Source: Giardia intestinalis (taxonomy: Eukaryota). Taken from it: a DNA stretch of 64,000 bases. The notes below the pieces were generated by a model. It worked only from the letters and a program-made list of their open reading frames with translations, had not been told where the DNA came from and ran no database searches. Location: assembly GCA_000002435.2 (NCBI GenBank), contig CM018793.1; one strand, given 5' to 3'. The translations under genes and the position numbers were made by a program. The stretch's first letter is position 1; each line of letters opens with the position of its first letter. Below, in pieces: positions 23,101 to 61,100 of this stretch.

Positions 23101-26100
23101 TCTATCACATGCATGCGTTCAAATTTGTCCACCTGGTGTTGCAAGTCATTGAAGTCAGCCTTGCCGGTGCTCTTTGCCAATTCCTCAAAAAGTTGTATGG
23201 GACGGACAAAAAGATTGCCTTTTTTATTATCCCAAGAAGAATATTTTTCACTTTTTAAAAGGTCATGGTCTCTCAGCGTTTGGATTTTAGAAAAGGATGC
23301 GATGTCATTTCCCAGATAACTGGTATTTTTTCGGCGTTGTGACATCAGTGAAAACACATTCGACTTATCACTGCTTAAGGTATTGAGATGCTCCTGTTCT
23401 CGTGAAACTGTGGGTCCAAGTCCACTTCCAGTAAATACTACGGGCGTGGACGGAGAAAGACGCCGTATATCGCTACGGTTTGTTTTCACAGCGCATAGGT
23501 ATCCTTCACAAATGCTTGGCATGTAAGAGCTGAATGATACTCCATGAATGCTCGCGTGGAGAACAGAGTATTCTCTTGGTGGTACTCCTGGAGGAAGAAC
23601 CTCTGTTACCAGCATAGTTTCTAGTTGTGGCGTAGATTGCGTTTCGGGCGCTTCTGGCTTCAGAGTAGTCTTTCTCTTGCTGCAGCTTTTAAGATAGGTG
23701 AGAACAAAGTGAAAGTAAGAGCGTAAACGAGCATGGTCGAATTCTGAGAGTTTTCTTACTTCAAGATCAAACAGGGATGGCCACGGGCTCTGAACGGCGT
23801 CTTTCTCTTGAGATATTGCGGCAGGTGAAGAGATATTCTCAGTGCTATTGAAAATGCGTTCCTTTCTGATAATCCTTTCTTCCATATTCATAGAATTAAA
23901 TTGCAGAGGATCCAGCATAACGGATACAGAATGCTGATAGTGTATCGATGTCGAGGAAATCATTTCTGAACGACTACTACTGCTACATTGCCCAATAGAT
24001 AGCCTAGGCGATCCTGCAAGGTCCTTAACCTTATCAAGAGATAGTAGAGATAGAGAAACCTGTGGGTTAAAGTCCAGACACTTTGTACTTGACGGAGAGA
24101 TGACATAATCCCGCAAGAAAAATGGCAGGCTGGCAAGGGCAGATCGCCCACAAGGACAGCATGCATCGTGCATTCTATAATAGCTGGCTCCACGATCATT
24201 GATGGATAGGAGTGAATGTACAGGACACATCTTCATTGACCGGTGAACTTTCTGCGCCGCGACAGAAGCAGCAGCCTCTATGTTAAAACATATAGAGGGA
24301 AAACGAATGCTGTTTCTGGAGAGAGTAAGAATAACAGATGCACAATTGTAAATCGACGCCACTATCTGAGGCATGCAAATGCGGATTGCCAGCTCTAGCC
24401 ACACGGCATCTAGCTGTTGTAGTAATAAGAACTTCTCTTTGAAAAACTCCAATTCGTGCATATTACACTCGGTTACATCTGATGTGTCCTTTGATTCTGG
24501 CTCAGTAGCAACTAATGTATTATTAATGTCACTTATAGAAATGTCAGATTGATCTGAGTTGCTATCAAAATTGAATGCTTTCCGTTGTTTTATAGAAGTC
24601 GTTACAAAGGAATTCTCAGACGTTTCAGCGCTTTCCGTCGTTCCTGCCGGATATGATTTTGCAGATTGAGAGGTTCCAGGGTTCTTGGAAAATTGGCTCA
24701 TAGACAGACCTTGTGCTTCGGTTGTTTTCAAGGTGATTGCAGCAGTATCTATGCAGACTCCATTAATCTTAACGCTAGTTAGAGGTGATGACTCCAAGTG
24801 GTTATAACACGCTGAGGAAGAGCGCAGAGCTGCGGCTAGGATATGTTTGATCTGTTTCTCTGAGAGATTGCGAACAAGACTGAGCTTCTGTATAATTAGC
24901 CTAACTCGCTGCATGCTCCTATCATTAAATACTTCCCTAACAGCGTTTAATATCTCAGCCTCTGTACTAAGCCTATTAGCAGAAAATCTTTTTTCAAGGT
25001 AATCCTTGCAATTGATGTGGAAGAAGTCATTTGTCATCGGCGTTGTTTGCAATAACAAGCACAGAGCGAGAGACGACACTCCATCAAAGAGATGCCGTGC
25101 TCTAATGGAGATAATCGACACAGGATCATACATTGCTTGCTTAAGTGTGCTATATGTAGTGTGAATAATAGGGTTGACTTGATGAGTCTGGAATCCGTTA
25201 AATATCTTCACATATGCGTTAGAATACATATCATATGCCACTATTAAGTCACTTGTTGCTAGAGCAAGGAAACTTTGAAAGTACAGGGGGATAACACGCG
25301 CAATGCAGCATAGGGCTTCATGTCTGACTAAAGGACTTACGTCATATATGCAGAGCTTAGAAATATTGAGTATAATATCTGGGGGATTCAAGTTGATGCT
25401 CTTATCAGACCCTGCCAAAAAGCTTTCGTTCCAAGTTTCTGACTCCGAGTCGCCCGGATAAAATACATCAACAACCCGATGACAGGCAATGATTGAAATC
25501 AAATCCACAACAGGTAGAGACGAGGTGACAACAGAGATAGCGGCTGCACGTATTTCTGCTGTCATGGATGGCTCAAAGAGCTTCATAAGGATGCCATAGA
25601 TATCGCGGATCTTCCCATAGTTACTTCCATAAGCAACTACGGATTCTGGCTGCTTGAAGTTATCATGTGCAGATGATATCAATTCGTCAGCAGTGAGCAA
25701 TGGCTCTACAGCTTCCTCTACTTGATCCGGCACAAATGTCAAAGAGAACAGCTTTGTTGACGAGCTAAGAAGGTTTGATGAGCTAGTCGCAATCACCATG
25801 CTATTTGAAGTAGGGATTGTTTTAGTGTAGGTATGAAGGGAGGGGCTTGATAGTCTGTTTGATCGTAGCTTTCTAGTATCTGTGACTGTTGTCGTCAGGT
25901 TGTGCATAAGTTCTGAGAGCAGAAGAAGACTCCAAAGCTTAATGTGTTCTGATGCCGAATGGACTAGAATAGCAAGTGCCTCGAGCATATTCTTCTGCAT
26001 TAAACTTTCGCGCATTATTGTGCAACACTCAGAAATGATGCGAGGATCGTCCCCTTGAGTATTCTGTGGCATATAAAAGCCAAACCCGTTTGTTAGGGTT

Positions 26101-43193: not shown

Positions 43194-46100
43194 TCAAGCA
43201 TTTTGTGCTTTTTGAAGTTCTGCAATAATGCAATCCTTTTCTGCAAGCTCTCTTTTGAGCATGGAGAGCTCCGCTTTGAGACTGACAGCTTCTGGACTTG
43301 TCAAGTATGAATCTTTTCCATCAAGGCTAAGCTCTGCCTCTCTCGCCTTTGCATAGAGATCATTTTTCAATCCAGACAAATGTTGCAAAGATGTATTGAT
43401 GCGAGCATCTGAAATAGATGCATCTAACGCGAAGTTAATATTATTTTCATGAAGGATATTCCTCAATCTAACAAGCTCACTATTTTTCTCTATGTTAGCC
43501 TCTCTAAGCTTAGTCAGTGCATGCTCAAGTTGACCGACTGCAGTTATCACGCGGGCCAATTCATCTTCTGTATAGTGAAGATCATCGGTAAGCTTTTGTA
43601 CCTCGTCGCGTAGGGCGAGGGTTTCCTCACCGGGATCACTGTTGTAGGTCCAGTCAAAGCGCTCGTTCAGCGCGTCCTTATATTCCAGTATCTTATTATC
43701 CTTTGCTTGAATGCGCTCTTCTAATATTGCAATCTCTTCTTTGAGGCGAGAAATTTCAGAGATCTTCCGTTCGACTTCAGCATTGCGAGAATTAAGCAGA
43801 AGGACAAGATTATCAACAGACTGCGATACTGTTTCATCATGAAGCTTGAGATCTTTATGGGCAAGGCTTTGAAGCCTGTCTATCTCATGTTTCAAAATGG
43901 CTAACTCTTCAGTTAATGCCGCAGAGTCAATCTTTGAGTCTAAAGACGAAAGTATTGCACTTGACTTAATAAGCCCATTCAAAAACTCCTTCCCTGTTTC
44001 AAAAGTATGGACAACAGTATTTGTTTGTGACGCGACAAGCGTCTGCTGGAGTTGGATGATCTCCTCTTGGTGCTGGCGAATCGCTTGTCGAAGATCTGGG
44101 ATGGTATCCTGCATCTCGCGGATCTGGGCCTTGGCGTCGTTCATGGCTCCGAGGTTTTCGGTCAGGGCAGAGACCCTGTCCTCAGCGGCGGCGAGCTGGG
44201 CGCGGGCGGTCTGCAGGGCGTCCTGGGCCTCCGCCAGCTGAGCCGCGAGGGCATCTCGCTCGGCCTCCAGATTCTTGTGCTCGGCCTCCAGAGCTGCGGC
44301 CTCGTCGAGGGCCTTATCGAGGGCCGCACGGGCCTCATCGCGCTCGGCCTCTGCAGCACGCACGTCGGCCTCAAGGCGGCGGATGGCCTCGTCGCCGCCC
44401 TGCGCCTGCTGTGCCTTGGCGCGGAACTTCTCGGCGGCATCGGCGAGGGCCTCTGTGCCTGCTGCTGCGTGTGCCTCGAGCTCGGCGATTTTGGCGCGGG
44501 CGTCGGCAAGCCTTTCTTCGGCGGCCTTGGCCTGAGCCTCCAGCTCTGCAGCGCGCTCTGCAAGCGCCTCTGCGTCGCGAGCACGCACGGCATCTTCGGC
44601 CGCCTGCTCGCGGAGGCGCGCCAGCTCCTCGGAGAGATCCTCGAGCTGGGCCGCCTTGAGCTGGGCGTCTTCCTGGTGGGCGGCGGCCTGCTCGCGCGCT
44701 TCACGGAGCGCCGCTGCGTTCTCGGCTGCGTCGCGGCGGAGGGCTGCAAGCTCCTGCTGAAGCTGCTGCGCGGCGTCGCCGTGGTCGGCAATCCCGTCGA
44801 TCGCCTCTGCAAGCGCCTTCTCGCGGGCCTCGAGCTTGTCTGTAAGGGCGGCGCTTTCGTCTTCGAGGCGACGGATCCTGTTCTGGGCGTCCTCGAGCGC
44901 GCCGTCTGTAGCGCTTCTTTTGAGGTCCATGGCAGTAAGCTGGCGCTCGCGGTCCCGGACCTCCTCTGCTCGCGCTTCGGCCTTGCGGCCCAGCGATTGA
45001 AGGGCACTCTCCAGCTCGTCGACGCGGTTGCGCAGCCGTGCCGTCTTGGCGGCGCTTTCTTCTGCTTGCTCTGCCCTTGCGGCTGCCTCGTCCTCCAGGG
45101 CTTGAATCCGCGTTCTGGCGGCCTCGACACTGGCCGTTGTTCGGGAAAGTTCGTCACTCAGCTGGCCGATCTCCTTGTCCTTTGCATCAAGGGTGGCATG
45201 GAGGTCATCTCGCTCGGCCTCGAGTTGAACGATGCGCTCTGCAGCGCCTTCATTGTCTTGCGCACGTAGTTGTTGAAGCTCGCGCTCGCGGTTGTCTGCC
45301 TCCTCGCGAAGTCTTTCTGCCTCATTCCGGAGCATGTCAAGCGCCACTGTCTTCTCATCGAGCTCGCCCTGCTTTTGCTCCAGCTCCTTCCTAAGAGTTC
45401 CAAGCTCCATTTCCTGCATCCCTGCATCTATCTGCTTGCTCTTGAGCTCTGACAAATAATCTTCGAGCATTTGGGTGCGCTCCTTCGAATCGGAAGCCTG
45501 CTGCTCGAGATGAGAAAGTGCATCAATCTTGTCGTGTGCTTCCTGGAGCTCGCGACGAAGCTCAGCGATTTCGTCTGCCTGACGCTGTGCTAAAGTGTCT
45601 TTATCTCTGGCTGCTTCTTCTAAATAGTGGACCTGGGCCTTGGCGTCGTTCATGGCTCCGAGGTTTTCGGTCAGGGCAGAGACCCTGTCCTCAGCGGCGG
45701 CGAGCTGGGCGCGGGCGGTCTGCAGGGCGTCCTGGGCCTCCGCCAGCTGAGCCGCGAGGGCATCTCGCTCGGCCTCCAGATTCTTGTGCTCGGCCTCCAG
45801 AGCTGCGGCCTCGTCGAGGGCCTTATCGAGGGCCGCACGGGCCTCATCGCGCTCGGCCTCTGCAGCACGCACGTCGGCCTCAAGGCGGCGGATGGCCTCG
45901 TCGCCGCCCTGCGCCTGCTGTGCCTTGGCGCGGAACTTCTCGGCGGCATCGGCGAGGGCCTCTGTGCCTGCTGCTGCGTGTGCCTCGAGCTCGACGATTT
46001 TGGCGCGGGCGTCGGCAAGCCTTTCTTCGGCGGCCTTGGCCTGAGCCTCCAGCTCTGCAGCGCGCTCTGCAAGCGCCTCTGCGTCGCGAGCACGCACGGC

Positions 46101-49100
46101 ATCTTCGGCCGCCTGCTCGCGGAGGCGCGCCAGCTCCTCGGAGAGATCCTCGAGCTGGGCCGCCTTGAGCTGGGCGTCTTCCTGGTGGGCGGCGGCCTGC
46201 TCGCGCGCTTCACGGAGCGCCGCTGCGTTCTCGGCTGCGTCGCGGCGGAGGGCTGCAAGCTCCTGCTGAAGCTGCTGCGCGGCGTCGCCGTGGTCGGCAA
46301 TCCCGTCGATCGCCTCTGCAAGCGCCTTCTCGCGGGCCTCGAGCTTGTCTGTAAGGGCGGCGCTTTCGTCTTCGAGGCGACGGATCCTGTTCTGGGCGTC
46401 CTCGAGCGCGCCGTCTGTAGCGCTTCTTTTGAGGTCCATGGCAGTAAGCTGGCGCTCGCGGTCCCGGACCTCCTCTGCTCGCGCTTCGGCCTTGCGGCCC
46501 AGCGATTGAAGGGCACTCTCCAGCTCGTCGACGCGGTTGCGCAGCCGTGCCGTCTTGGCGGCGCTTTCTTCTGCTTGCTCTGCCCTTGCGGCTGCCTCGT
46601 CCTCCAGGGCTTGAATCCGCGTTCTGGCGGCCTCGACACTGGCCGTTGTTCGGGAAAGTTCGTCACTCAGCTGGCCGATCTCCTTGTCCTTTGCATCAAG
46701 GGTGGCATGGAGGTCATCTCGCTCGGCCTCGAGTTGAACGATGCGCTCTGCAGCGCCTTCATTGTCTTGCGCACGTAGTTGTTGAAGCTCGCGCTCGCGG
46801 TTGTCTGCCTCCTCGCGAAGTCTTTCTGCCTCATTCCGGAGCATGTCAAGCGCCACTGTCTTCTCATCGAGCTCGCCCTGCTTTTGCTCCAGCTCCTTCC
46901 TAAGAGTTCCAAGCTCCATTTCCTGCATCCCTGCATCTATCTGCTTGCTCTTGAGCTCTGACAAATAATCTTCGAGCATTTGGGTGCGCTCCTTCGAATC
47001 GGAAGCCTGCTGCTCGAGATGAGAAAGTGCATCAATCTTGTCGTGTGCTTCCTGGAGCTCGCGACGAAGCTCAGCGATTTCGTCTGCCTGACGCTGTGCT
47101 AAAGTGTCTTTATCTCTGGCTGCTTCTTCTAAATAGTGGACCTGGGCCTTGGCGTCGTTCATGGCTCCGAGGTTTTCGGTCAGGGCAGAGACCCTGTCCT
47201 CAGCGGCGGCGAGCTGGGCGCGGGCGGTCTGCAGGGCGTCCTGGGCCTCCGCCAGCTGAGCCGCGAGGGCATCTCGCTCGGCCTCCAGATTCTTGTGCTC
47301 GGCCTCCAGAGCTGCGGCCTCGTCGAGGGCCTTATCGAGGGCCGCACGGGCCTCATCGCGCTCGGCCTCTGCAGCACGCACGTCGGCCTCAAGGCGGCGG
47401 ATGGCCTCGTCGCCGCCCTGCGCCTGCTGTGCCTTGGCGCGGAACTTCTCGGCGGCATCGGCGAGGGCCTCTGTGCCTGCTGCTGCGTGTGCCTCGAGCT
47501 CGGCGATTTTGGCGCGGGCGTCGGCAAGCCTTTCTTCGGCGGCCTTGGCCTGAGCCTCCAGCTCTGCAGCGCGCTCTGCAAGCGCCTCTGCGTCGCGAGC
47601 ACGCACGGCATCTTCGGCCGCCTGCTCGCGGAGGCGCGCCAGCTCCTCGGAGAGATCCTCGAGCTGGGCCGCCTTGAGCTGGGCGTCTTCCTGGTGGGCG
47701 GCGGCCTGCTCGCGCGCTTCACGGAGCGCCGCTGCGTTCTCGGCTGCGTCGCGGCGGAGGGCTGCAAGCTCCTGCTGAAGCTGCTGCGCGGCGTCGCCGT
47801 GGTCGGCAATCCCGTCGATCGCCTCTGCAAGCGCCTTCTCGCGGGCCTCGAGCTTGTCTGTAAGGGCGGCGCTTTCGTCTTCGAGGCGACGGATCCTGTT
47901 CTGGGCGTCCTCGAGCGCGCCGTCTGTAGCGCTTCTTTTGAGGTCCATGGCAGTAAGCTGGCGCTCGCGGTCCCGGACCTCCTCTGCTCGCGCTTCGGCC
48001 TTGCGGCCCAGCGATTGAAGGGCACTCTCCAGCTCGTCGACGCGGTTGCGCAGCCGTGCCGTCTTGGCGGCGCTTTCTTCTGCTTGCTCTGCCCTTGCGG
48101 CTGCCTCGTCCTCCAGGGCTTGAATCCGCGTTCTGGCGGCCTCGACACTGGCCGTTGTTCGGGAAAGTTCGTCACTCAGCTGGCCGATCTCCTTGTCCTT
48201 TGCATCAAGGGTGGCATGGAGGTCATCTCGCTCGGCCTCGAGTTGAACGATGCGCTCTGCAGCGCCTTCATTGTCTTGCGCACGTAGTTGTTGAAGCTCG
48301 CGCTCGCGGTTGTCTGCCTCCTCGCGAAGTCTTTCTGCCTCATTCCGGAGCATGTCAAGCGCCACTGTCTTCTCATCGAGCTCGCCCTGCTTTTGCTCCA
48401 GCTCCTTCCTAAGAGTTCCAAGCTCCATTTCCTGCATCCCTGCATCTATCTGCTTGCTCTTGAGCTCTGACAAATAATCTTCGAGCATTTGGGTGCGCTC
48501 CTTCGAATCGGAAGCCTGCTGCTCGAGATGAGAAAGTGCATCAATCTTGTCGTGTGCTTCCTGGAGCTCGCGACGAAGCTCAGCGATTTCGTCTGCCTGA
48601 CGCTGTGCTAAAGTGTCTTTATCTCTGGCTGCTTCTTCTAAATAGTGGACCTGGGCCTTGGCGTCGTTCATGGCTCCGAGGTTTTCGGTCAGGGCAGAGA
48701 CCCTGTCCTCAGCGGCGGCGAGCTGGGCGCGGGCGGTCTGCAGGGCGTCCTGGGCCTCCGCCAGCTGAGCCGCGAGGGCATCTCGCTCGGCCTCCAGATT
48801 CTTGTGCTCGGCCTCCAGAGCTGCGGCCTCGTCGAGGGCCTTATCGAGGGCCGCACGGGCCTCATCGCGCTCGGCCTCTGCAGCACGCACGTCGGCCTCA
48901 AGGCGGCGGATGGCCTCGTCGCCGCCCTGCGCCTGCTGTGCCTTGGCGCGGAACTTCTCGGCGGCATCGGCGAGGGCCTCTGTGCCTGCTGCTGCGTGTG
49001 CCTCGAGCTCGGCGATTTTGGCGCGGGCGTCGGCAAGCCTTTCTTCGGCGGCCTTGGCCTGAGCCTCCAGCTCTGCAGCGCGCTCTGCAAGCGCCTCTGC

Positions 49101-52100
49101 GTCGCGAGCACGCACGGCATCTTCGGCCGCCTGCTCGCGGAGGCGCGCCAGCTCCTCGGAGAGATCCTCGAGCTGGGCCGCCTTGAGCTGGGCGTCTTCC
49201 TGGTGGGCGGCGGCCTGCTCGCGCGCTTCACGGAGCGCCGCTGCGTTCTCGGCTGCGTCGCGGCGGAGGGCTGCAAGCTCCTGCTGAAGCTGCTGCGCGG
49301 CGTCGCCGTGGTCGGCAATCCCGTCGATCGCCTCTGCAAGCGCCTTCTCGCGGGCCTCGAGCTTGTCTGTAAGGGCGGCGCTTTCGTCTTCGAGGCGACG
49401 GATCCTGTTCTGGGCGTCCTCGAGCGCGCCGTCTGTAGCGCTTCTTTTGAGGTCCATGGCAGTAAGCTGGCGCTCGCGGTCCCGGACCTCCTCTGCTCGC
49501 GCTTCGGCCTTGCGGCCCAGCGATTGAAGGGCACTCTCCAGCTCGTCGACGCGGTTGCGCAGCCGTGCCGTCTTGGCGGCGCTTTCTTCTGCTTGCTCTG
49601 CCCTTGCGGCTGCCTCGTCCTCCAGGGCTTGAATCCGCGTTCTGGCGGCCTCGACACTGGCCGTTGTTCGGGAAAGTTCGTCACTCAGCTGGCCGATCTC
49701 CTTGTCCTTTGCATCAAGGGTGGCATGGAGGTCATCTCGCTCGGCCTCGAGTTGAACGATGCGCTCTGCAGCGCCTTCATTGTCTTGCGCACGTAGTTGT
49801 TGAAGCTCGCGCTCGCGGTTGTCTGCCTCCTCGCGAAGTCTTTCTGCCTCATTCCGGAGCATGTCAAGCGCCACTGTCTTCTCATCGAGCTCGCCCTGCT
49901 TTTGCTCCAGCTCCTTCCTAAGAGTTCCAAGCTCCATTTCCTGCATCCCTGCATCTATCTGCTTGCTCTTGAGCTCTGACAAATAATCTTCGAGCATTTG
50001 GGTGCGCTCCTTCGAATCGGAAGCCTGCTGCTCGAGATGAGAAAGTGCATCAATCTTGTCGTGTGCTTCCTGGAGCTCGCGACGAAGCTCAGCGATTTCG
50101 TCTGCCTGACGCTGTGCTAAAGTGTCTTTATCTCTGGCTGCTTCTTCTAAATAGTGGACCTGGGCCTTGGCGTCGTTCATGGCTCCGAGGTTTTCGGTCA
50201 GGGCAGAGACCCTGTCCTCAGCGGCGGCGAGCTGGGCGCGGGCGGTCTGCAGGGCGTCCTGGGCCTCCGCCAGCTGAGCCGCGAGGGCATCTCGCTCGGC
50301 CTCCAGATTCTTGTGCTCGGCCTCCAGAGCTGCGGCCTCGTCGAGGGCCTTATCGAGGGCCGCACGGGCCTCATCGCGCTCGGCCTCTGCAGCACGCACG
50401 TCGGCCTCAAGGCGGCGGATGGCCTCGTCGCCGCCCTGCGCCTGCTGTGCCTTGGCGCGGAACTTCTCGGCGGCATCGGCGAGGGCCTCTGTGCCTGCTG
50501 CTGCGTGTGCCTCGAGCTCGGCGATTTTGGCGCGGGCGTCGGCAAGCCTTTCTTCGGCGGCCTTGGCCTGAGCCTCCAGCTCTGCAGCGCGCTCTGCAAG
50601 CGCCTCTGCGTCGCGAGCACGCACGGCATCTTCGGCCGCCTGCTCGCGGAGGCGCGCCAGCTCCTCGGAGAGATCCTCGAGCTGGGCCGCCTTGAGCTGG
50701 GCGTCTTCCTGGTGGGCGGCGGCCTGCTCGCGCGCTTCACGGAGCGCCGCTGCGTTCTCGGCTGCGTCGCGGCGGAGGGCTGCAAGCTCCTGCTGAAGCT
50801 GCTGCGCGGCGTCGCCGTGGTCGGCAATCCCGTCGATCGCCTCTGCAAGCGCCTTCTCGCGGGCCTCGAGCTTGTCTGTAAGGGCGGCGCTTTCGTCTTC
50901 GAGGCGACGGATCCTGTTCTGGGCGTCCTCGAGCGCGCCGTCTGTAGCGCTTCTTTTGAGGTCCATGGCAGTAAGCTGGCGCTCGCGGTCCCGGACCTCC
51001 TCTGCTCGCGCTTCGGCCTTGCGGCCCAGCGATTGAAGGGCACTCTCCAGCTCGTCGACGCGGTTGCGCAGCCGTGCCGTCTTGGCGGCGCTTTCTTCTG
51101 CTTGCTCTGCCCTTGCGGCTGCCTCGTCCTCCAGGGCTTGAATCCGCGTTCTGGCGGCCTCGACACTGGCCGTTGTTCGGGAAAGTTCGTCACTCAGCTG
51201 GCCGATCTCCTTGTCCTTTGCATCAAGGGTGGCATGGAGGTCATCTCGCTCGGCCTCGAGTTGAACGATGCGCTCTGCAGCGCCTTCATTGTCTTGCGCA
51301 CGTAGTTGTTGAAGCTCGCGCTCGCGGTTGTCTGCCTCCTCGCGAAGTCTTTCTGCCTCATTCCGGAGCATGTCAAGCGCCACTGTCTTCTCATCGAGCT
51401 CGCCCTGCTTTTGCTCCAGCTCCTTCCTAAGAGCGCTTGCTTCAATAGTATAAATTTGAGTATCTGACATCTGTGATTTAAGCTCACTAACAAAATCTTC
51501 CAACCGTTGAGTACGTTCTTTGGAATCGTTCGCTCTTTCCTCTGATGCCTTATTTAATTTTTTCAGGTCTGCTACCTCTGTCAAAAGTTCCTTTTTGTCG
51601 CGCTCGAGTTGAGCCACGCGATCAACAAGATCTTGAGATTCCTCTGCCTCTAGTTTCATAGTGGCAATTTCATCCATTTGTGCATTTAAGTTATCCAATA
51701 GCTCCGCCATCTGAATTTCATTGGCTTGTGCCTCATGGGTTCGTCTGGCAAATTCCATCTGGGACGCGACAAGCGTCTGCTGGAGTTGGATGATCTCCTC
51801 TTGGTGCTGGCGAATCGCTTGTCGAAGATCTGGGATGGTATCCTGCATCTCGCGGATCTGGGCCTTGGCGTCGTTCATGGCTCCGAGGTTTTCGGTCAGG
51901 GCAGAGACCCTGTCCTCAGCGGCGGCGAGCTGGGCGCGGGCGGTCTGCAGGGCGTCCTGGGCCTCCGCCAGCTGAGCCGCGAGGGCATCTCGCTCGGCCT
52001 CCAGATTCTTGTGCTCGGCCTCCAGAGCTGCGGCCTCGTCGAGGGCCTTATCGAGGGCCGCACGGGCCTCATCGCGCTCGGCCTCTGCAGCACGCACGTC

Positions 52101-55100
52101 GGCCTCAAGGCGGCGGATGGCCTCGTCGCCGCCCTGCGCCTGCTGTGCCTTGGCGCGGAACTTCTCGGCGGCATCGGCGAGGGCCTCTGTGCCTGCTGCT
52201 GCGTGTGCCTCGAGCTCGGCGATTTTGGCGCGGGCGTCGGCAAGCCTTTCTTCGGCGGCCTTGGCCTGAGCCTCCAGCTCTGCAGCGCGCTCTGCAAGCG
52301 CCTCTGCGTCGCGAGCACGCACGGCATCTTCGGCCGCCTGCTCGCGGAGGCGCGCCAGCTCCTCGGAGAGATCCTCGAGCTGGGCCGCCTTGAGCTGGGC
52401 GTCTTCCTGGTGGGCGGCGGCCTGCTCGCGCGCTTCACGGAGCGCCGCTGCGTTCTCGGCTGCGTCGCGGCGGAGGGCTGCAAGCTCCTGCTGAAGCTGC
52501 TGCGCGGCGTCGCCGTGGTCGGCAATCCCGTCGATCGCCTCTGCAAGCGCCTTCTCGCGGGCCTCGAGCTTGTCTGTAAGGGCGGCGCTTTCGTCTTCGA
52601 GGCGACGGATCCTGTTCTGGGCGTCCTCGAGCGCGCCGTCTGTAGCGCTTCTTTTGAGGTCCATGGCAGTAAGCTGGCGCTCGCGGTCCCGGACCTCCTC
52701 TGCTCGCGCTTCGGCCTTGCGGCCCAGCGATTGAAGGGCACTCTCCAGCTCGTCGACGCGGTTGCGCAGCCGTGCCGTCTTGGCGGCGCTTTCTTCTGCT
52801 TGCTCTGCCCTTGCGGCTGCCTCGTCCTCCAGGGCTTGAATCCGCGTTCTGGCGGCCTCGACACTGGCCGTTGTTCGGGAAAGTTCGTCACTCAGCTGGC
52901 CGATCTCCTTGTCCTTTGCATCAAGGGTGGCATGGAGGTCATCTCGCTCGGCCTCGAGTTGAACGATGCGCTCTGCAGCGCCTTCATTGTCTTGCGCACG
53001 TAGTTGTTGAAGCTCGCGCTCGCGGTTGTCTGCCTCCTCGCGAAGTCTTTCTGCCTCATTCCGGAGCATGTCAAGCGCCACTGTCTTCTCATCGAGCTCG
53101 CCCTGCTTTTGCTCCAGCTCCTTCCTAAGAGCGCTTGCTTCAATAGTATAAATTTGAGTATCTGACATCTGTGATTTAAGCTCACTAACAAAATCTTCCA
53201 ACCGTTGAGTACGTTCTTTGGAATCGTTCGCTCTTTCCTCTGATGCCTTATTTAATTTTTTCAGGTCTGCTACCTCTGTCAAAAGTTCCTTTTTGTCGCG
53301 CTCGAGTTGAGCCACGCGATCAACAAGATCTTGAGATTCCTCTGCCTCTAGTTTCATAGTGGCAATTTCATCCATTTGTGCATTTAAGTTATCCAATAGC
53401 TCCGCCATCTGAATTTCATTGGCTTGTGCCTCATGGGTTCGTCTGGCAAATTCCATCTGGGACGCGACAAGCGTCTGCTGGAGTTGGATGATCTCCTCTT
53501 GGTGCTGGCGAATCGCTTGTCGAAGATCTGGGATGGTATCCTGCATCTCGCGGATCTGGGCCTTGGCGTCGTTCATGGCTCCGAGGTTTTCGGTCAGGGC
53601 AGAGACCCTGTCCTCAGCGGCGGCGAGCTGGGCGCGGGCGGTCTGCAGGGCGTCCTGGGCCTCCGCCAGCTGAGCCGCGAGGGCATCTCGCTCGGCCTCC
53701 AGATTCTTGTGCTCGGCCTCCAGAGCTGCGGCCTCGTCGAGGGCCTTATCGAGGGCCGCACGGGCCTCATCGCGCTCGGCCTCTGCAGCACGCACGTCGG
53801 CCTCAAGGCGGCGGATGGCCTCGTCGCCGCCCTGCGCCTGCTGTGCCTTGGCGCGGAACTTCTCGGCGGCATCGGCGAGGGCCTCTGTGCCTGCTGCTGC
53901 GTGTGCCTCGAGCTCGGCGATTTTGGCGCGGGCGTCGGCAAGCCTTTCTTCGGCGGCCTTGGCCTGAGCCTCCAGCTCTGCAGCGCGCTCTGCAAGCGCC
54001 TCTGCGTCGCGAGCACGCACGGCATCTTCGGCCGCCTGCTCGCGGAGGCGCGCCAGCTCCTCGGAGAGATCCTCGAGCTGGGCCGCCTTGAGCTGGGCGT
54101 CTTCCTGGTGGGCGGCGGCCTGCTCGCGCGCTTCACGGAGCGCCGCTGCGTTCTCGGCTGCGTCGCGGCGGAGGGCTGCAAGCTCCTGCTGAAGCTGCTG
54201 CGCGGCGTCGCCGTGGTCGGCAATCCCGTCGATCGCCTCTGCAAGCGCCTTCTCGCGGGCCTCGAGCTTGTCTGTAAGGGCGGCGCTTTCGTCTTCGAGG
54301 CGACGGATCCTGTTCTGGGCGTCCTCGAGCGCGCCGTCTGTAGCGCTTCTTTTGAGGTCCATGGCAGTAAGCTGGCGCTCGCGGTCCCGGACCTCCTCTG
54401 CTCGCGCTTCGGCCTTGCGGCCCAGCGATTGAAGGGCACTCTCCAGCTCGTCGACGCGGTTGCGCAGCCGTGCCGTCTTGGCGGCGCTTTCTTCTGCTTG
54501 CTCTGCCCTTGCGGCTGCCTCGTCCTCCAGGGCTTGAATCCGCGTTCTGGCGGCCTCGACACTGGCCGTTGTTCGGGAAAGTTCGTCACTCAGCTGGCCG
54601 ATCTCCTTGTCCTTTGCATCAAGGGTGGCATGGAGGTCATCTCGCTCGGCCTCGAGTTGAACGATGCGCTCTGCAGCGCCTTCATTGTCTTGCGCACGTA
54701 GTTGTTGAAGCTCGCGCTCGCGGTTGTCTGCCTCCTCGCGAAGTCTTTCTGCCTCATTCCGGAGCATGTCAAGCGCCACTGTCTTCTCATCGAGCTCGCC
54801 CTGCTTTTGCTCCAGCTCCTTCCTAAGAGCGCTTGCTTCAATAGTATAAATTTGAGTATCTGACATCTGTGATTTAAGCTCACTAACAAAATCTTCCAAC
54901 CGTTGAGTACGTTCTTTGGAATCGTTCGCTCTTTCCTCTGATGCCTTATTTAATTTTTTCAGGTCTGCTACCTCTGTCAAAAGTTCCTTTTTGTCGCGCT
55001 CGAGTTGAGCCACGCGATCAACAAGATCTTGAGATTCCTCTGCCTCTAGTTTCATAGTGGCAATTTCATCCATTTGTGCATTTAAGTTATCCAATAGCTC

Positions 55101-58100
55101 CGCCATCTGAATTTCATTGGCTTGTGCCTCATGGGTTCGTCTGGCAAATTCCATCTGGGACGCGACAAGCGTCTGCTGGAGTTGGATGATCTCCTCTTGG
55201 TGCTGGCGAATCGCTTGTCGAAGATCTGGGATGGTATCCTGCATCTCGCGGATCTGGGCCTTGGCGTCGTTCATGGCTCCGAGGTTTTCGGTCAGGGCAG
55301 AGACCCTGTCCTCAGCGGCGGCGAGCTGGGCGCGGGCGGTCTGCAGGGCGTCCTGGGCCTCCGCCAGCTGAGCCGCGAGGGCATCTCGCTCGGCCTCCAG
55401 ATTCTTGTGCTCGGCCTCCAGAGCTGCGGCCTCGTCGAGGGCCTTATCGAGGGCCGCACGGGCCTCATCGCGCTCGGCCTCTGCAGCACGCACGTCGGCC
55501 TCAAGGCGGCGGATGGCCTCGTCGCCGCCCTGCGCCTGCTGTGCCTTGGCGCGGAACTTCTCGGCGGCATCGGCGAGGGCCTCTGTGCCTGCTGCTGCGT
55601 GTGCCTCGAGCTCGGCGATTTTGGCGCGGGCGTCGGCAAGCCTTTCTTCGGCGGCCTTGGCCTGAGCCTCCAGCTCTGCAGCGCGCTCTGCAAGCGCCTC
55701 TGCGTCGCGAGCACGCACGGCATCTTCGGCCGCCTGCTCGCGGAGGCGCGCCAGCTCCTCGGAGAGATCCTCGAGCTGGGCCGCCTTGAGCTGGGCGTCT
55801 TCCTGGTGGGCGGCGGCCTGCTCGCGCGCTTCACGGAGCGCCGCTGCGTTCTCGGCTGCGTCGCGGCGGAGGGCTGCAAGCTCCTGCTGAAGCTGCTGCG
55901 CGGCGTCGCCGTGGTCGGCAATCCCGTCGATCGCCTCTGCAAGCGCCTTCTCGCGGGCCTCGAGCTTGTCTGTAAGGGCGGCGCTTTCGTCTTCGAGGCG
56001 ACGGATCCTGTTCTGGGCGTCCTCGAGCGCGCCGTCTGTAGCGCTTCTTTTGAGGTCCATGGCAGTAAGCTGGCGCTCGCGGTCCCGGACCTCCTCTGCT
56101 CGCGCTTCGGCCTTGCGGCCCAGCGATTGAAGGGCACTCTCCAGCTCGTCGACGCGGTTGCGCAGCCGTGCCGTCTTGGCGGCGCTTTCTTCTGCTTGCT
56201 CTGCCCTTGCGGCTGCCTCGTCCTCCAGGGCTTGAATCCGCGTTCTGGCGGCCTCGACACTGGCCGTTGTTCGGGAAAGTTCGTCACTCAGCTGGCCGAT
56301 CTCCTTGTCCTTTGCATCAAGGGTGGCATGGAGGTCATCTCGCTCGGCCTCGAGTTGAACGATGCGCTCTGCAGCGCCTTCATTGTCTTGCGCACGTAGT
56401 TGTTGAAGCTCGCGCTCGCGGTTGTCTGCCTCCTCGCGAAGTCTTTCTGCCTCATTCCGGAGCATGTCAAGCGCCACTGTCTTCTCATCGAGCTCGCCCT
56501 GCTTTTGCTCCAGCTCCTTCCTAAGAGCGCTTGCTTCAATAGTATAAATTTGAGTATCTGACATCTGTGATTTAAGCTCACTAACAAAATCTTCCAACCG
56601 TTGAGTACGTTCTTTGGAATCGTTCGCTCTTTCCTCTGATGCCTTATTTAATTTTTTCAGGTCTGCTACCTCTGTCAAAAGTTCCTTTTTGTCGCGCTCG
56701 AGTTGAGCCACGCGATCAACAAGATCTTGAGATTCCTCTGCCTCTAGTTTCATAGTGGCAATTTCATCCATTTGTGCATTTAAGTTATCCAATAGCTCCG
56801 CCATCTGAATTTCATTGGCTTGTGCCTCATGGGTTCGTCTGGCAAATTCCATCTGGGACGCGACAAGCGTCTGCTGGAGTTGGATGATCTCCTCTTGGTG
56901 CTGGCGAATCGCTTGTCGAAGATCTGGGATGGTATCCTGCATCTCGCGGATCTGGGCCTTGGCGTCGTTCATGGCTCCGAGGTTTTCGGTCAGGGCAGAG
57001 ACCCTGTCCTCAGCGGCGGCGAGCTGGGCGCGGGCGGTCTGCAGGGCGTCCTGGGCCTCCGCCAGCTGAGCCGCGAGGGCATCTCGCTCGGCCTCCAGAT
57101 TCTTGTGCTCGGCCTCCAGAGCTGCGGCCTCGTCGAGGGCCTTATCGAGGGCCGCACGGGCCTCATCGCGCTCGGCCTCTGCAGCACGCACGTCGGCCTC
57201 AAGGCGGCGGATGGCCTCGTCGCCGCCCTGCGCCTGCTGTGCCTTGGCGCGGAACTTCTCGGCGGCATCGGCGAGGGCCTCTGTGCCTGCTGCTGCGTGT
57301 GCCTCGAGCTCGGCGATTTTGGCGCGGGCGTCGGCAAGCCTTTCTTCGGCGGCCTTGGCCTGAGCCTCCAGCTCTGCAGCGCGCTCTGCAAGCGCCTCTG
57401 CGTCGCGAGCACGCACGGCATCTTCGGCCGCCTGCTCGCGGAGGCGCGCCAGCTCCTCGGAGAGATCCTCGAGCTGGGCCGCCTTGAGCTGGGCGTCTTC
57501 CTGGTGGGCGGCGGCCTGCTCGCGCGCTTCACGGAGCGCCGCTGCGTTCTCGGCTGCGTCGCGGCGGAGGGCTGCAAGCTCCTGCTGAAGCTGCTGCGCG
57601 GCGTCGCCGTGGTCGGCAATCCCGTCGATCGCCTCTGCAAGCGCCTTCTCGCGGGCCTCGAGCTTGTCTGTAAGGGCGGCGCTTTCGTCTTCGAGGCGAC
57701 GGATCCTGTTCTGGGCGTCCTCGAGCGCGCCGTCTGTAGCGCTTCTTTTGAGGTCCATGGCAGTAAGCTGGCGCTCGCGGTCCCGGACCTCCTCTGCTCG
57801 CGCTTCGGCCTTGCGGCCCAGCGATTGAAGGGCACTCTCCAGCTCGTCGACGCGGTTGCGCAGCCGTGCCGTCTTGGCGGCGCTTTCTTCTGCTTGCTCT
57901 GCCCTTGCGGCTGCCTCGTCCTCCAGGGCTTGAATCCGCGTTCTGGCGGCCTCGACACTGGCCGTTGTTCGGGAAAGTTCGTCACTCAGCTGGCCGATCT
58001 CCTTGTCCTTTGCATCAAGGGTGGCATGGAGGTCATCTCGCTCGGCCTCGAGTTGAACGATGCGCTCTGCAGCGCCTTCATTGTCTTGCGCACGTAGTTG

Positions 58101-61100
58101 TTGAAGCTCGCGCTCGCGGTTGTCTGCCTCCTCGCGAAGTCTTTCTGCCTCATTCCGGAGCATGTCAAGCGCCACTGTCTTCTCATCGAGCTCGCCCTGC
58201 TTTTGCTCCAGCTCCTTCCTAAGAGTTCCAAGCTCCATTTCCTGCATCCCTGCATCTATCTGCTTGCTCTTGAGCTCTGACAAATAATCTTCGAGCATTT
58301 GGGTGCGCTCCTTCGAATCGGAAGCCTGCTGCTCGAGATGAGAAAGTGCATCAATCTTGTCGTGTGCTTCCTGGAGCTCGCGACGAAGCTCAGCGATTTC
58401 GTCTGCCTGACGCTGTGCTAAAGTGTCTTTATCTCTGGCTGCTTCTTCTAAATAGTGGACCTGGGCCTTGGCGTCGTTCATGGCTCCGAGGTTTTCGGTC
58501 AGGGCAGAGACCCTGTCCTCAGCGGCGGCGAGCTGGGCGCGGGCGGTCTGCAGGGCGTCCTGGGCCTCCGCCAGCTGAGCCGCGAGGGCATCTCGCTCGG
58601 CCTCCAGATTCTTGTGCTCGGCCTCCAGAGCTGCGGCCTCGTCGAGGGCCTTATCGAGGGCCGCACGGGCCTCATCGCGCTCGGCCTCTGCAGCACGCAC
58701 GTCGGCCTCAAGGCGGCGGATGGCCTCGTCGCCGCCCTGCGCCTGCTGTGCCTTGGCGCGGAACTTCTCGGCGGCATCGGCGAGGGCCTCTGTGCCTGCT
58801 GCTGCGTGTGCCTCGAGCTCGGCGATTTTGGCGCGGGCGTCGGCAAGCCTTTCTTCGGCGGCCTTGGCCTGAGCCTCCAGCTCTGCAGCGCGCTCTGCAA
58901 GCGCCTCTGCGTCGCGAGCACGCACGGCATCTTCGGCCGCCTGCTCGCGGAGGCGCGCCAGCTCCTCGGAGAGATCCTCGAGCTGGGCCGCCTTGAGCTG
59001 GGCGTCTTCCTGGTGGGCGGCGGCCTGCTCGCGCGCTTCACGGAGCGCCGCTGCGTTCTCGGCTGCGTCGCGGCGGAGGGCTGCAAGCTCCTGCTGAAGC
59101 TGCTGCGCGGCGTCGCCGTGGTCGGCAATCCCGTCGATCGCCTCTGCAAGCGCCTTCTCGCGGGCCTCGAGCTTGTCTGTAAGGGCGGCGCTTTCGTCTT
59201 CGAGGCGACGGATCCTGTTCTGGGCGTCCTCGAGCGCGCCGTCTGTAGCGCTTCTTTTGAGGTCCATGGCAGTAAGCTGGCGCTCGCGGTCCCGGACCTC
59301 CTCTGCTCGCGCTTCGGCCTTGCGGCCCAGCGATTGAAGGGCACTCTCCAGCTCGTCGACGCGGTTGCGCAGCCGTGCCGTCTTGGCGGCGCTTTCTTCT
59401 GCTTGCTCTGCCCTTGCGGCTGCCTCGTCCTCCAGGGCTTGAATCCGCGTTCTGGCGGCCTCGACACTGGCCGTTGTTCGGGAAAGTTCGTCACTCAGCT
59501 GGCCGATCTCCTTGTCCTTTGCATCAAGGGTGGCATGGAGGTCATCTCGCTCGGCCTCGAGTTGAACGATGCGCTCTGCAGCGCCTTCATTGTCTTGCGC
59601 ACGTAGTTGTTGAAGCTCGCGCTCGCGGTTGTCTGCCTCCTCGCGAAGTCTTTCTGCCTCATTCCGGAGCATGTCAAGCGCCACTGTCTTCTCATCGAGC
59701 TCGCCCTGCTTTTGCTCCAGCTCCTTCCTAAGAGCGCTTGCTTCAATAGTATAAATTTGAGTATCTGACATCTGTGATTTAAGCTCACTAACAAAATCTT
59801 CCAACCGTTGAGTACGTTCTTTGGAATCGTTCGCTCTTTCCTCTGATGCCTTATTTAATTTTTTCAGGTCTGCTACCTCTGTCAAAAGTTCCTTTTTGTC
59901 GCGCTCGAGTTGAGCCACGCGATCAACAAGATCTTGAGATTCCTCTGCCTCTAGTTTCATAGTGGCAATTTCATCCATTTGTGCATTTAAGTTATCCAAT
60001 AGCTCCGCCATCTGAATTTCATTGGCTTGTGCCTCATGGGTTCGTCTGGCAAATTCCATCTGGGACGCGACAAGCGTCTGCTGGAGTTGGATGATCTCCT
60101 CTTGGTGCTGGCGAATCGCTTGTCGAAGATCTGGGATGGTATCCTGCATCTCGCGGATCTGGGCCTTGGCGTCGTTCATGGCTCCGAGGTTTTCGGTCAG
60201 GGCAGAGACCCTGTCCTCAGCGGCGGCGAGCTGGGCGCGGGCGGTCTGCAGGGCGTCCTGGGCCTCCGCCAGCTGAGCCGCGAGGGCATCTCGCTCGGCC
60301 TCCAGATTCTTGTGCTCGGCCTCCAGAGCTGCGGCCTCGTCGAGGGCCTTATCGAGGGCCGCACGGGCCTCATCGCGCTCGGCCTCTGCAGCACGCACGT
60401 CGGCCTCAAGGCGGCGGATGGCCTCGTCGCCGCCCTGCGCCTGCTGTGCCTTGGCGCGGAACTTCTCGGCGGCATCGGCGAGGGCCTCTGTGCCTGCTGC
60501 TGCGTGTGCCTCGAGCTCGGCGATTTTGGCGCGGGCGTCGGCAAGCCTTTCTTCGGCGGCCTTGGCCTGAGCCTCCAGCTCTGCAGCGCGCTCTGCAAGC
60601 GCCTCTGCGTCGCGAGCACGCACGGCATCTTCGGCCGCCTGCTCGCGGAGGCGCGCCAGCTCCTCGGAGAGATCCTCGAGCTGGGCCGCCTTGAGCTGGG
60701 CGTCTTCCTGGTGGGCGGCGGCCTGCTCGCGCGCTTCACGGAGCGCCGCTGCGTTCTCGGCTGCGTCGCGGCGGAGGGCTGCAAGCTCCTGCTGAAGCTG
60801 CTGCGCGGCGTCGCCGTGGTCGGCAATCCCGTCGATCGCCTCTGCAAGCGCCTTCTCGCGGGCCTCGAGCTTGTCTGTAAGGGCGGCGCTTTCGTCTTCG
60901 AGGCGACGGATCCTGTTCTGGGCGTCCTCGAGCGCGCCGTCTGTAGCGCTTCTTTTGAGGTCCATGGCAGTAAGCTGGCGCTCGCGGTCCCGGACCTCCT
61001 CTGCTCGCGCTTCGGCCTTGCGGCCCAGCGATTGAAGGGCACTCTCCAGCTCGTCGACGCGGTTGCGCAGCCGTGCCGTCTTGGCGGCGCTTTCTTCTGC

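What the first reader, a model, noticed from the sequence alone, without database searches (positions are those of the whole stretch)
45398..51857. Two diverged module variants embedded in otherwise identical repeat flanks, arranged in blocks
Units differ only by a cassette: 235 bp (78 aa) in the short variant and 424 bp (141 aa) in the long variant. The cassettes are themselves distantly homologous (SDSKERTQMLEDYLSELKSKQ vs NDSKERTQRLEDFVSELKSQM). They are far more diverged, and in the long form markedly AT-richer, than the surrounding ~1270 bp, which is about 100% identical between all copies. Order along the DNA is short four times, long four times, short, long twice, short. Diverged cores inside homogenised flanks, in blocks, fit repeated unequal crossover or gene conversion acting on flanks while two cassette types are retained. 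The cassette mix may set local coiled-coil properties or binding sites.
Basis: seen in the sequence. Interest (0 to 1): 0.7.

Follow-up and report, generated by a model that had tools for sequence, protein, structure and literature searches.

The report
Two-variant repeat array in Giardia stalk protein
The region is the repetitive stalk-coding part of a giant Giardia ankyrin-head/coiled-coil protein, built from at least 13 identical 424-residue modules joined by one of two old, related linkers; this is an ordinary case of concerted repeat evolution, but it shows that older gene models were collapsed to under a third of the length visible here.

Summary
On the minus strand an open frame runs from the stop at 43194 past the window end (more than 6,935 codons). 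It holds 13 copies of a 1,274-bp block, with one mismatch in total. The blocks are separated by a 235-bp (S) or 424-bp (L) cassette, in the order SSSS LLLL S LL S.

The window is Giardia intestinalis WB. The gene is the head-stalk protein annotated GASP-180/GHSP-138. Its old 2,124-aa model had the array collapsed and lacked L entirely.

S and L are truly homologous (BLASTP E 9e-12), with saturated synonymous sites. They differ by 42+21 residues, which is exactly 9 heptads.

The syntenic ortholog in GCA_006247105.1 (which I believe is G. muris) has five identical 537-aa units, all L-like. So L is ancestral and S arose in the G. intestinalis lineage.

Short-read contigs from eight datasets stop exactly k-1 bases into the repeat, which supports the L-type junction independently.

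Best explanation: concerted evolution by unequal exchange or conversion through the identical blocks, with cassette heterology keeping two unit types. The "blocks" order is not significant (P=0.18). A mobile-element origin is refuted.

One unexplained extra: the block has a strong bias to C-ending codons. Interest is modest.

The parts
43194..44028 (-). Unique C-terminal tail of the giant ORF (276 codons plus the stop at 43194-43196). AT-rich, GC3 about 0.40.
   Evidence: ORF list, translation. 87% identical to the assemblage B protein GSB_151937. The first base that differs from the L cassette is 44028.
44029..44123 (-). Start of the tail that is 95 nt identical to the 5' part of the L cassette (IREMQDTIPDLRQAIRQHQEEIIQLQQTLVASQ). 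The array therefore ends in an L-type junction.
   Evidence: (95 identical nt). Short-read contigs end at 44057/44058 (k=31) and 44169 (k=141), which is k-1 bases past 44029.
44124..45397 (-). Shared block, copy 1 of 13: 1,274 bp, 424 aa, 26% Ala, GC 0.67, GC3 0.73. Other copies: 45633-46906, 47142-48415, 48651-49924, 50160-51433, 51858-53131, 53556-54829, 55254-56527, 56952-58225, 58461-59734, 60159-61432, 61857-63130, and the partial 63366-64000.
   Evidence: All copies are identical except G>A at 45994.
45398..45632 (-). Short (S) cassette, 235 bp, about 79 codons. The six identical copies are 45398-45632, 46907-47141, 48416-48650, 49925-50159, 58226-58460 and 63131-63365.
   Evidence: Present in the old Sanger-era WB gene model P0073.
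51434..51857 (-). Long (L) cassette, 424 bp, about 142 codons. The six identical copies are 51434-51857, 53132-53555, 54830-55253, 56528-56951, 59735-60158 and 61433-61856. Its first 100 aa are the part of the unit best conserved with the ortholog in GCA_006247105.1 (57% identity, against 37% for the block). It contains the only proline of the unit.
43194..64000 (-). C-terminal part (more than 6,935 codons) of the giant head-stalk protein gene. The frame stays open to the window edge, and the N-terminal ankyrin head and about 1,070 unique residues lie beyond 64000.
   Evidence: no stop up to 63998. Searches give the collapsed models P0069 and P0073 with the ankyrin head. One search gives Ank_2 at E 3e-31 in P0073.
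45994..45994 (-). The only polymorphism among the shared blocks: G>A on the + strand, Ala to Val (ARAKIVELEAH), in block copy 2.

Best explanation
**What it is**
The region is coding sequence (minus strand) of a giant Giardia intestinalis 'head-stalk' protein. The protein has an N-terminal ankyrin-repeat head (outside the window) and an alpha-helical coiled-coil stalk. In the window alone the stalk would span about 1 micrometre if it were one continuous coiled coil.

**How the stalk is built**
The stalk was lengthened by tandem, in-frame amplification of a unit of about 1.5-1.7 kb. Each unit is a 424-aa Ala/Glu/Leu/Arg-rich block plus a linker cassette. The L-type unit is ancestral, because the syntenic ortholog in GCA_006247105.1 (which I believe is G. 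muris) has only L-like units. In the G. intestinalis lineage a second linker, S, arose. S is homologous to L residues 60-139. It lacks L's conserved, proline-containing first 59 residues (17 unrelated residues stand in their place) and a further 21 residues. The net difference is 63 aa, or 9 heptads, so swapping S for L leaves the downstream heptad phase unchanged.

**How the DNA pattern arises (inferred)**
At the DNA level the array evolves in concert. Unequal sister-chromatid exchange, gene conversion or replication slippage uses the identical 1,274-bp blocks as substrate. This keeps blocks identical across all units and duplicates or deletes whole units, which also keeps each cassette type uniform. 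The S and L cassettes are only 54% identical at the nucleotide level, so they cannot convert each other and persist as two unit 'alleles'. Their order is the stochastic product of unit gains, losses and crossovers.

**Shown and inferred**
Shown: the anatomy, the homology, the ancestry of L, the identity pattern within and between species, and the reality of both cassettes outside this assembly. Inferred: the recombination mechanism, and the functional effect of the S/L mix on stalk length and on the number of conserved L sites or hinges.
For: - Anatomy and identity.
- Organism and gene: the neighbouring proteins are exact matches to G. intestinalis WB KAE8305051-61. The gene clusters with XP_001709357.1 'Axoneme-associated protein GASP-180' and ACJ49153.1 'head-stalk protein GHSP-138'.
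- Old models are collapsed: the old WB model P0073 (2,124 aa) is head + half block + S + block + tail. The DH model P0069 (1,621 aa) is fully collapsed. The two differ by 503 aa, exactly one S unit.
- Ankyrin head: Ank_2 at E 3e-31.
- Stalk is helical: the AF2 model of S+block+L is about 97% helix. A heuristic heptad tracker finds continuous heptads with 4 discontinuities per unit, and an equivalent one in S and in L.
- S/L homology. Synonymous sites are saturated (pS 0.86), while the motif DSKERTQxLEDxxSELKS is kept (pN 0.26).
- Ortholog: P0077 (4,580 aa, L028, same gene order) has 5 identical 1,611-bp units plus a partial sixth, all L-like. L against the ortholog unit scores 298, and S scores 63, which is background.
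- Independent support for the junction: seven Logan contigs (k=31) and one megahit contig (k=141) end exactly k-1 nt into the repeat at 44029. Assemblage B scaffolds place a gap at the array, and their flanks reach into the repeat at both ends. This suggests the same boundaries but was not measured.
Against: - No recombination event is observed directly.
- The copy number, the order and the perfect identity rest on one HGAP/Quiver PacBio assembly. Consensus polishing of reads that map ambiguously among repeats can erase real differences between copies.
- The window ends inside the array, so the total unit number and the N-terminal junction in this assembly are unseen.
- No second strain with a resolved array was available, so turnover of order or copy number is not shown.
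- pS above 0.75 partly reflects opposite codon preferences of S and L, so the age of the split is uncertain.
- The functional role of the cassettes is untested.
Confidence: 0.75

Rival explanations
1. Assembly or polishing artefact. The array as written (13+ units, this S/L order, near-perfect identity) is a product of HGAP/Quiver assembly of a long repeat rather than the true locus.
For: - Every short-read or older assembly collapses or breaks at this array.
- Quiver on multi-mapping reads tends to homogenise copies.
Against: - Both cassette types exist independently of this assembly. S is in the Sanger-era model P0073. L is orthologous to the repeat cassette of the GCA_006247105.1 ortholog.
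- L's junction is marked by de Bruijn-graph branch points at exactly k-1 in 8 independent datasets.
- The frame stays open over more than 20 kb in spite of PacBio's indel-prone reads.
- One SNP survived polishing.
- The 189-bp length difference between unit types is an easy landmark for reads of about 10 kb.
- The qualitative finding is therefore safe. Only the exact number and order remain uncertain.
Confidence: 0.1
2. Selectively maintained functional alternation. S and L are both kept, and their number or position tuned, because they provide different hinge or binding properties along an axoneme-associated stalk. The pattern would then not be neutral turnover.
For: - A peptide motif is conserved between S and L despite saturated synonymous sites.
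- The insertions and deletions are whole heptad multiples, 42 and 21 aa.
- L residues 1-100 are the most conserved part of the unit against the ortholog: 57%, against 37% for the block.
- The only proline of the unit is in L, at position 9. A proline is also at position 9 of the ortholog's unit.
Against: - The order is not distinguishable from random.
- The S/L-shared motif is not conserved in the ortholog: L 101-142 is only 10% identical.
- The ortholog manages with one unit type.
- There are no localisation, interaction or cross-strain data for this gene.
- An in-frame indel has a 1/7 prior of being a heptad multiple, so two such events (about 1/49) are suggestive, not decisive.
Confidence: 0.25
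3. The cassettes are unrelated insertions, such as a mobile element or foreign DNA, in an otherwise uniform repeat.
For: The cassettes have a very different base composition (GC 0.45-0.50) from the block (0.67) and sharp boundaries.
Against: - The cassettes match the composition of the rest of the gene and genome (0.43-0.50). The block is the outlier.
- Both cassettes are in frame, helical and heptad-patterned.
- They are homologous to each other.
- L is colinear with the ortholog's unit and with the start of the tail.
- There are no Pfam hits to transposase or integrase, only sub-threshold coiled-coil families.
Confidence: 0.01

Closest known systems
Giardia head-stalk proteins (GHSP family: GASP-180, GHSP-115, GHSP-138; Elmendorf et al. 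2005, Int J Parasitol, as cited in PMC3499766 and PMC13315228)
   Same: It has an ankyrin-repeat head followed by a very long coiled-coil stalk and is specific to Giardia. The old model of this very gene is named GASP-180 / GHSP-138 by NCBI and UniProt.
   Different: The published and annotated models are 1,621-2,124 aa with the array collapsed. Here the stalk has at least 13 modules (more than 6,935 aa visible) and a second linker type (L) that is absent from the old WB model. I found no paper describing the repeat array or its two unit types. The axonemal localisation reported for GASP-180 proper may not apply to this paralog.
Positional ortholog in GCA_006247105.1, CM016927.1 (P0077, 4,580 aa; the assignment to Giardia muris is from my own knowledge, not a tool result)
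   Same: It has the same flanking genes, an ankyrin head, a tandem array of perfectly identical units (5 x 1,611 bp plus a partial sixth), an L-like cassette beginning QIREMQD..PDLRQA, and an array that ends inside a cassette-like sequence running into the tail.
   Different: It has a single unit type of 537 aa and no S cassette. It shows no GC or C-ending codon contrast between repeat and unique parts. Its unit length is 5 mod 7 rather than 6 mod 7.
Concerted evolution of tandem coding repeats by unequal crossing-over or gene conversion (general principle; my own examples are rDNA arrays, mucin and involucrin repeats, and giant repetitive cytoskeletal proteins of trypanosomes such as FAZ10)
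   Same: Units are head-to-tail and in frame. They are near-identical within a genome but diverged between species. Variant units are interspersed. Short-read assemblies collapse the array.
   Different: The units are unusually long (503 or 566 aa). There are only two sharply delimited variants, whose difference is confined to one linker and is an exact multiple of the heptad.

Membership tests
Giardia head-stalk protein (GHSP/GASP-180-like) family | N-terminal ankyrin repeats | tested here: met
   The head lies outside the window. The collapsed models of the same gene (P0073, P0069) share the identical block, S cassette and tail. P0073 gives Ank_2 at E 3.2e-31, above Pfam's cut-off. The ortholog P0077 also carries Ank_2.
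Giardia head-stalk protein (GHSP/GASP-180-like) family | Long C-terminal alpha-helical coiled-coil stalk | tested here: met
   The AF2 model of S+block+L is about 97% helix. The heptad tracker follows a/d positions continuously, with 4 discontinuities per unit (own heuristic). Only coiled-coil Pfam families hit, all below threshold. No dimer model or dedicated coiled-coil predictor was run.
Giardia head-stalk protein (GHSP/GASP-180-like) family | Named as, or clustering with, a described family member | tested here: met
   It falls in the same 90% cluster as XP_001709357.1 'Axoneme-associated protein GASP-180' and ACJ49153.1 'head-stalk protein GHSP-138'.
Giardia head-stalk protein (GHSP/GASP-180-like) family | Association with axonemes or the cytoskeleton | not testable with these tools
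   No localisation data for this gene were found. Its GL50803 gene ID was not determined. GL50803_16745 and GL50803_137716 are the IDs annotated GASP-180 in PMC5142787.
Concertedly evolving tandem coding array (unequal exchange / gene conversion) | Units much more alike within a genome than between species | tested here: met
   WB has 1 mismatch in 13 blocks. The ortholog has 0 differences among 5 units. Between species, identity is 37% in the block and 57% in L residues 1-100.
Concertedly evolving tandem coding array (unequal exchange / gene conversion) | Copy number or order varies between strains | not testable with these tools
   All other assemblies reached (DH, GS_B, P15 fragments, ENA scaffolds, Logan contigs) collapse or break at the array. 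Two metagenome scans found nothing.
   The cassettes are homologous to each other. L is colinear with the ortholog's unit. They are in frame, and there are no transposase or integrase hits.

The most novel reading that the evidence does not exclude
The S/L array may be a tunable, micrometre-scale modular tether or ruler. Each L unit (about 84 nm) would present one conserved proline-containing site or hinge. Each S unit (about 75 nm, exactly 9 heptads shorter) would omit it. Recombination within the array would then let Giardia lineages vary stalk length and site spacing.

A second possibility concerns the strong shift to C-ending codons. It is confined to the homogenised block, shared by assemblages A and B, and absent from the G. 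muris-like ortholog. It could record a recombination-linked or copy-number-amplified bias acting only on the concertedly evolving DNA, which would give a natural reporter of mitotic recombination in a supposedly asexual tetraploid.
Probability: 0.15. Interest if true: 0.55.

Novelty: new member of a known kind. Interest (0 to 1): 0.3.

Why it matters
**Practical**
- The gene model used in much earlier Giardia work (2,124 aa, or 1,621 aa in DH) has under a third of the residues visible in this window (more than 6,935 aa). It lacks the L cassette completely. L-specific peptides, antibody epitopes, expression estimates and knock-out designs for this 'GASP-180/GHSP-138' gene are therefore affected.
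- The locus is a likely cause of contig breaks in short-read Giardia assemblies.

**Biological**
- It is a clean example of concerted evolution in a giant cytoskeletal protein of a tetraploid, largely asexual parasite.
- Two heptad-compatible linker types could tune stalk length and the number of conserved sites.
- The array could serve as a strain-typing or recombination marker once long reads are compared.

None of this overturns existing ideas.

Tried and rejected
- Tandem Repeats Finder found nothing, because its longest period is 500. The repeat finder was used instead.
- A word-indexed homology search with the tail, with S+block+L, and with the cassettes alone returned only assemblage B fragments or nothing. 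The 90% cluster representative of this gene is an N-terminal fragment, so the cassettes are invisible to that tool.
- An exact look-up of eight Met-started C-terminal fragments to recover the old WB gene model failed. The model was then found through the DH protein's cluster.
- Literature searches by accession and gene ID did not identify the GL50803 ID or any description of the array. One search was uninformative.
- Two degenerate-pattern scans of JGI metagenome contigs, one for the S/L motif and one for the L start motif, found nothing.
- tblastn of S and L against all fetched loci found no S cassette outside the window. L-like sequence turned up only as tail starts and in the G. muris-like ortholog.
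- Internal repeats within the 424-aa block: none at E <= 1e-3.
- A significantly block-wise order is rejected by exact enumeration.
- Simple GC-biased gene conversion as the cause of the GC-rich block is doubtful. At four-fold sites only C rises (0.52 against 0.20) while G stays at 0.18. This looks more like a strand-specific or codon-preference effect.
- The monomer AF2 model did not show a break at the conserved proline. Its low-confidence break is at L residues 65-73. A monomer fold of a coiled coil says little about hinges.


Full report
**1. The observation**

The window contains a minus-strand reading frame that ends at a stop at 43194-43196. It is still open at 63998, so more than 6,935 codons are visible and the gene runs off the window.

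From 44029 upward the DNA is a head-to-tail array. The repeat finder gives 13 in-register copies with start-to-start spacings of 1509 x4, 1698 x4, 1509, 1698 x2, 1509. Direct comparison of short and long units shows the following:
- a shared block of exactly 1,274 bp (44124-45397 and 12 further copies, the last cut by the window end);
- a variable cassette of 235 bp (S; first copy 45398-45632) or 424 bp (L; first copy 51434-51857).

All six S copies are identical to each other, and so are all six L copies. The only difference among the 13 blocks is G>A at 45994, which changes Ala to Val.

The claim that the units are 'arranged in blocks' is not statistically supported. There are 5 runs among 6 S and 6 L, and P(<=5 runs) = 0.18. 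The chance that both types show a run of at least 4 is 0.09.

**2. Whose gene this is**

Neighbouring ORFs encode ankyrin-repeat proteins, a kinase, a class I tRNA synthetase and similar products, separated by intergenic gaps of 20-50 bp. Five of these ORFs are exact matches to Giardia intestinalis WB clone C6 proteins KAE8305051-60, on a 4.02-Mb contig of the 2020 PacBio assembly. The 3,049-aa neighbour is GL50803_16731, KAE8305061.

The unique tail is 87% identical to the assemblage B protein GSB_151937. In the DH (assemblage AII) assembly the gene at this position is a 1,621-aa 'putative ankyrin repeat protein'. Its 90% cluster contains XP_001709357.1 'Axoneme-associated protein GASP-180', which is the same as ACJ49153.1 'head-stalk protein GHSP-138' (P0073, 2,124 aa). 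That is the 2007 WB model.

- P0073 reads: ankyrin head and about 1,070 unique residues, then the second half of a block, one S cassette, one full block and the tail.
- The DH model is the same without the S unit. 2,124 minus 1,621 is 503, exactly one S unit.

Both older models are therefore collapsed versions of the array seen here, and neither contains the L cassette.

The family, with its ankyrin head and long coiled-coil stalk, was described by Elmendorf et al. 2005, as cited in PMC3499766 and PMC13315228. I found no paper that describes the array or its two unit types. I could not determine the GL50803 identifier. GL50803_16745 and GL50803_137716 are the genes annotated GASP-180 in PMC5142787, and which of them this is remains unverified.

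**3. Is the array real?**

The structure comes from an HGAP/Quiver assembly. Exact copy number, order and perfect identity therefore deserve caution. Both cassettes, however, are supported independently:
- S is present in the Sanger-era model P0073.
- L is orthologous to the repeat cassette of another Giardia species (see section 5).
- The tail shares 95 nt (44029-44123) with the 5' end of L and diverges from it at 44028.
- Seven Logan short-read contigs (k=31) from different runs end at 44057/44058. A megahit k=141 contig ends at 44169. Both are exactly k-1 bases into the repeat, as expected for a de Bruijn-graph branch at that point.
- Assemblage B scaffolds place a gap at the array, and their flanks reach into the repeat at both ends. 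This suggests the same boundaries, though I did not measure it.

The frame stays open for more than 20 kb.

**4. The cassettes are diverged homologs**

BLASTP aligns S residues 18-76 with L residues 60-139, with one 21-aa gap (36% identity, E 9e-12). The Smith-Waterman score is 119. Shuffled S gives 41.6 +/- 6.8 with a maximum of 78. The best score of S against any other part of the protein is 68.

In the aligned codons nucleotide identity is 54% and synonymous sites are saturated (pS 0.86). In the core motif DSKERTQxLEDxxSELKS pS is 0.99 and pN is 0.26. S prefers G/C-ending codons and L prefers A/T-ending codons.

The split is therefore old, and the peptide similarity is not due to recent conversion.

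L is longer by 42 aa at its N-terminal end and by 21 aa internally. The total is 63 aa, or 9 heptads. Unit lengths of 503 and 566 aa are both 6 mod 7. My simple a/d-position Viterbi tracker finds four register discontinuities per unit. The one inside the cassette has the same shift in S and in L (a heuristic). A single-sequence AF2 model of S+block+L is about 97% helix. Pfam gives only sub-threshold coiled-coil hits.

**5. L is ancestral**

An exhaustive HMMER search of 1.84 billion representatives found one strong relative, P0077 (4,580 aa). It lies on CM016927.1 of GCA_006247105.1, which I believe to be Giardia muris, though no tool confirmed this. The flanking genes are the same: an NGP1-type GTPase, a kinase and a large neighbour.

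It has five perfectly identical 1,611-bp (537-aa) units plus a partial sixth. The unit is colinear with the WB L unit. Identity by segment is:

| Segment of WB L unit | Identity to ortholog unit |
|---|---|
| L residues 1-33 | 70% |
| L residues 1-100 | 57% |
| L residues 101-142 | 10% |
| Block | 37% |

S has no specific counterpart there (score 63, against 298 for L). The only proline of the WB unit is at L position 9, and a proline is also at position 9 of the ortholog's unit. S units contain no proline.

In both species the array ends inside a cassette-like sequence that continues into the tail. The tail start is therefore an old paralog of the cassette.

Units identical within each species but only 37-57% identical between species are the hallmark of concerted evolution.

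**6. Mechanism**

The best-supported account is ordinary concerted evolution of a tandem coding array. Unequal sister-chromatid exchange, gene conversion or slippage uses the identical 1.27-kb blocks. This keeps the blocks uniform and duplicates or deletes whole units, which also keeps each cassette type uniform. The 46% nucleotide divergence between S and L blocks conversion across the cassette, so two unit types coexist and are shuffled. This part is inferred, because no event was observed and no second resolved array was available.

Functionally, the S/L mix changes stalk length by 9.4 nm per unit. It also changes the number of copies of the conserved, proline-containing L segment. Whether that matters is untested.

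The mobile-element alternative is refuted. The cassettes have the composition of the rest of the gene, are in frame, are homologous to each other, and L is orthologous across species.

**7. An unexplained extra**

The compositional outlier is the block, not the cassettes.

| Region | GC3 |
|---|---|
| Block | 0.73, rising from about 0.55 to about 0.85 along the block |
| Tail | 0.40 |
| L cassette | 0.43 |
| S cassette | 0.51 |
| Unique N-terminal part | 0.22-0.62 |
| All neighbouring genes | 0.39-0.56 |

At four-fold sites C is 0.52 in the block against 0.20 in the neighbours, while G is unchanged at 0.18. GCC supplies 59 of 110 Ala codons.

The same contrast exists in assemblage B, where block GC3 is 0.78 and tail GC3 is 0.31. 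It is absent from the G. muris-like ortholog.

Expression-level selection cannot explain a contrast inside a single mRNA. Simple GC-biased conversion does not explain the C-only rise. I leave this open.

**8. Verdict**

The gene and its family are known, and the mechanism is a textbook one.

What is new is the resolved architecture: at least 13 modules, two heptad-compatible linker types, an ancestral L, and old models that held under a third of the residues visible here.

Interest is modest.

Noticed in passing
window 44124-64000 (each shared block), minus-strand codons: The repeated block has a strong, strand-specific codon shift. GC3 is 0.73, and C at four-fold sites is 0.52 against 0.20 in neighbouring genes, with G unchanged. 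The shift coincides with the limits of the homogenised region. It is also present in assemblage B (block GC3 0.78, tail 0.31) but absent from the G. muris-like ortholog. No explanation fits cleanly.
   Followed up: partly
window 44052-63901, + strand, and a second minus-strand frame (e.g. 44052-45269 +, 45627-46778 +, 51726-53003 +, 44162-45157 -): Every repeat unit carries long ORFs of 216-425 aa on the antisense strand and in another sense frame. They recur with the repeat period. They are most likely stop-poor artefacts of the GC/Ala-rich composition, not genes.
   Followed up: no
window 45994: There is a single G>A difference (Ala to Val) in one of the 13 otherwise identical blocks. It could be a real variant between copies that survived consensus polishing, or a residual error.
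   Followed up: partly
P0073 / P0069 (old WB and DH gene models) versus window 43194-64000: Reference protein models for this gene (2,124 and 1,621 aa) are collapsed-repeat artefacts. They hold under a third of the residues visible in the window (more than 6,935), and the L cassette is missing from both. Short-read Giardia assemblies from many SRA runs break at window 44057/44058.
   Followed up: yes
L028:3001-16743 (GCA_006247105.1, CM016927.1): The syntenic ortholog has its own perfectly homogeneous array of 5 x 1,611 bp plus a partial sixth unit. The WB L cassette residues 101-140 align better with that species' tail than with its internal cassettes (48.6% identity over 146 aa). This suggests that the tail start and the cassette are ancient paralogs.
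   Followed up: partly
window 13854-43146: The neighbourhood is dense with other very large ORFs that have almost no Pfam content: 1,873 aa, 2,653 aa (Raptor_N on record) and 3,049 aa (GL50803_16731, with no family hit). ORFs 19499-20191 (+) and 20151-28112 (-) overlap by about 40 bp.
   Followed up: no
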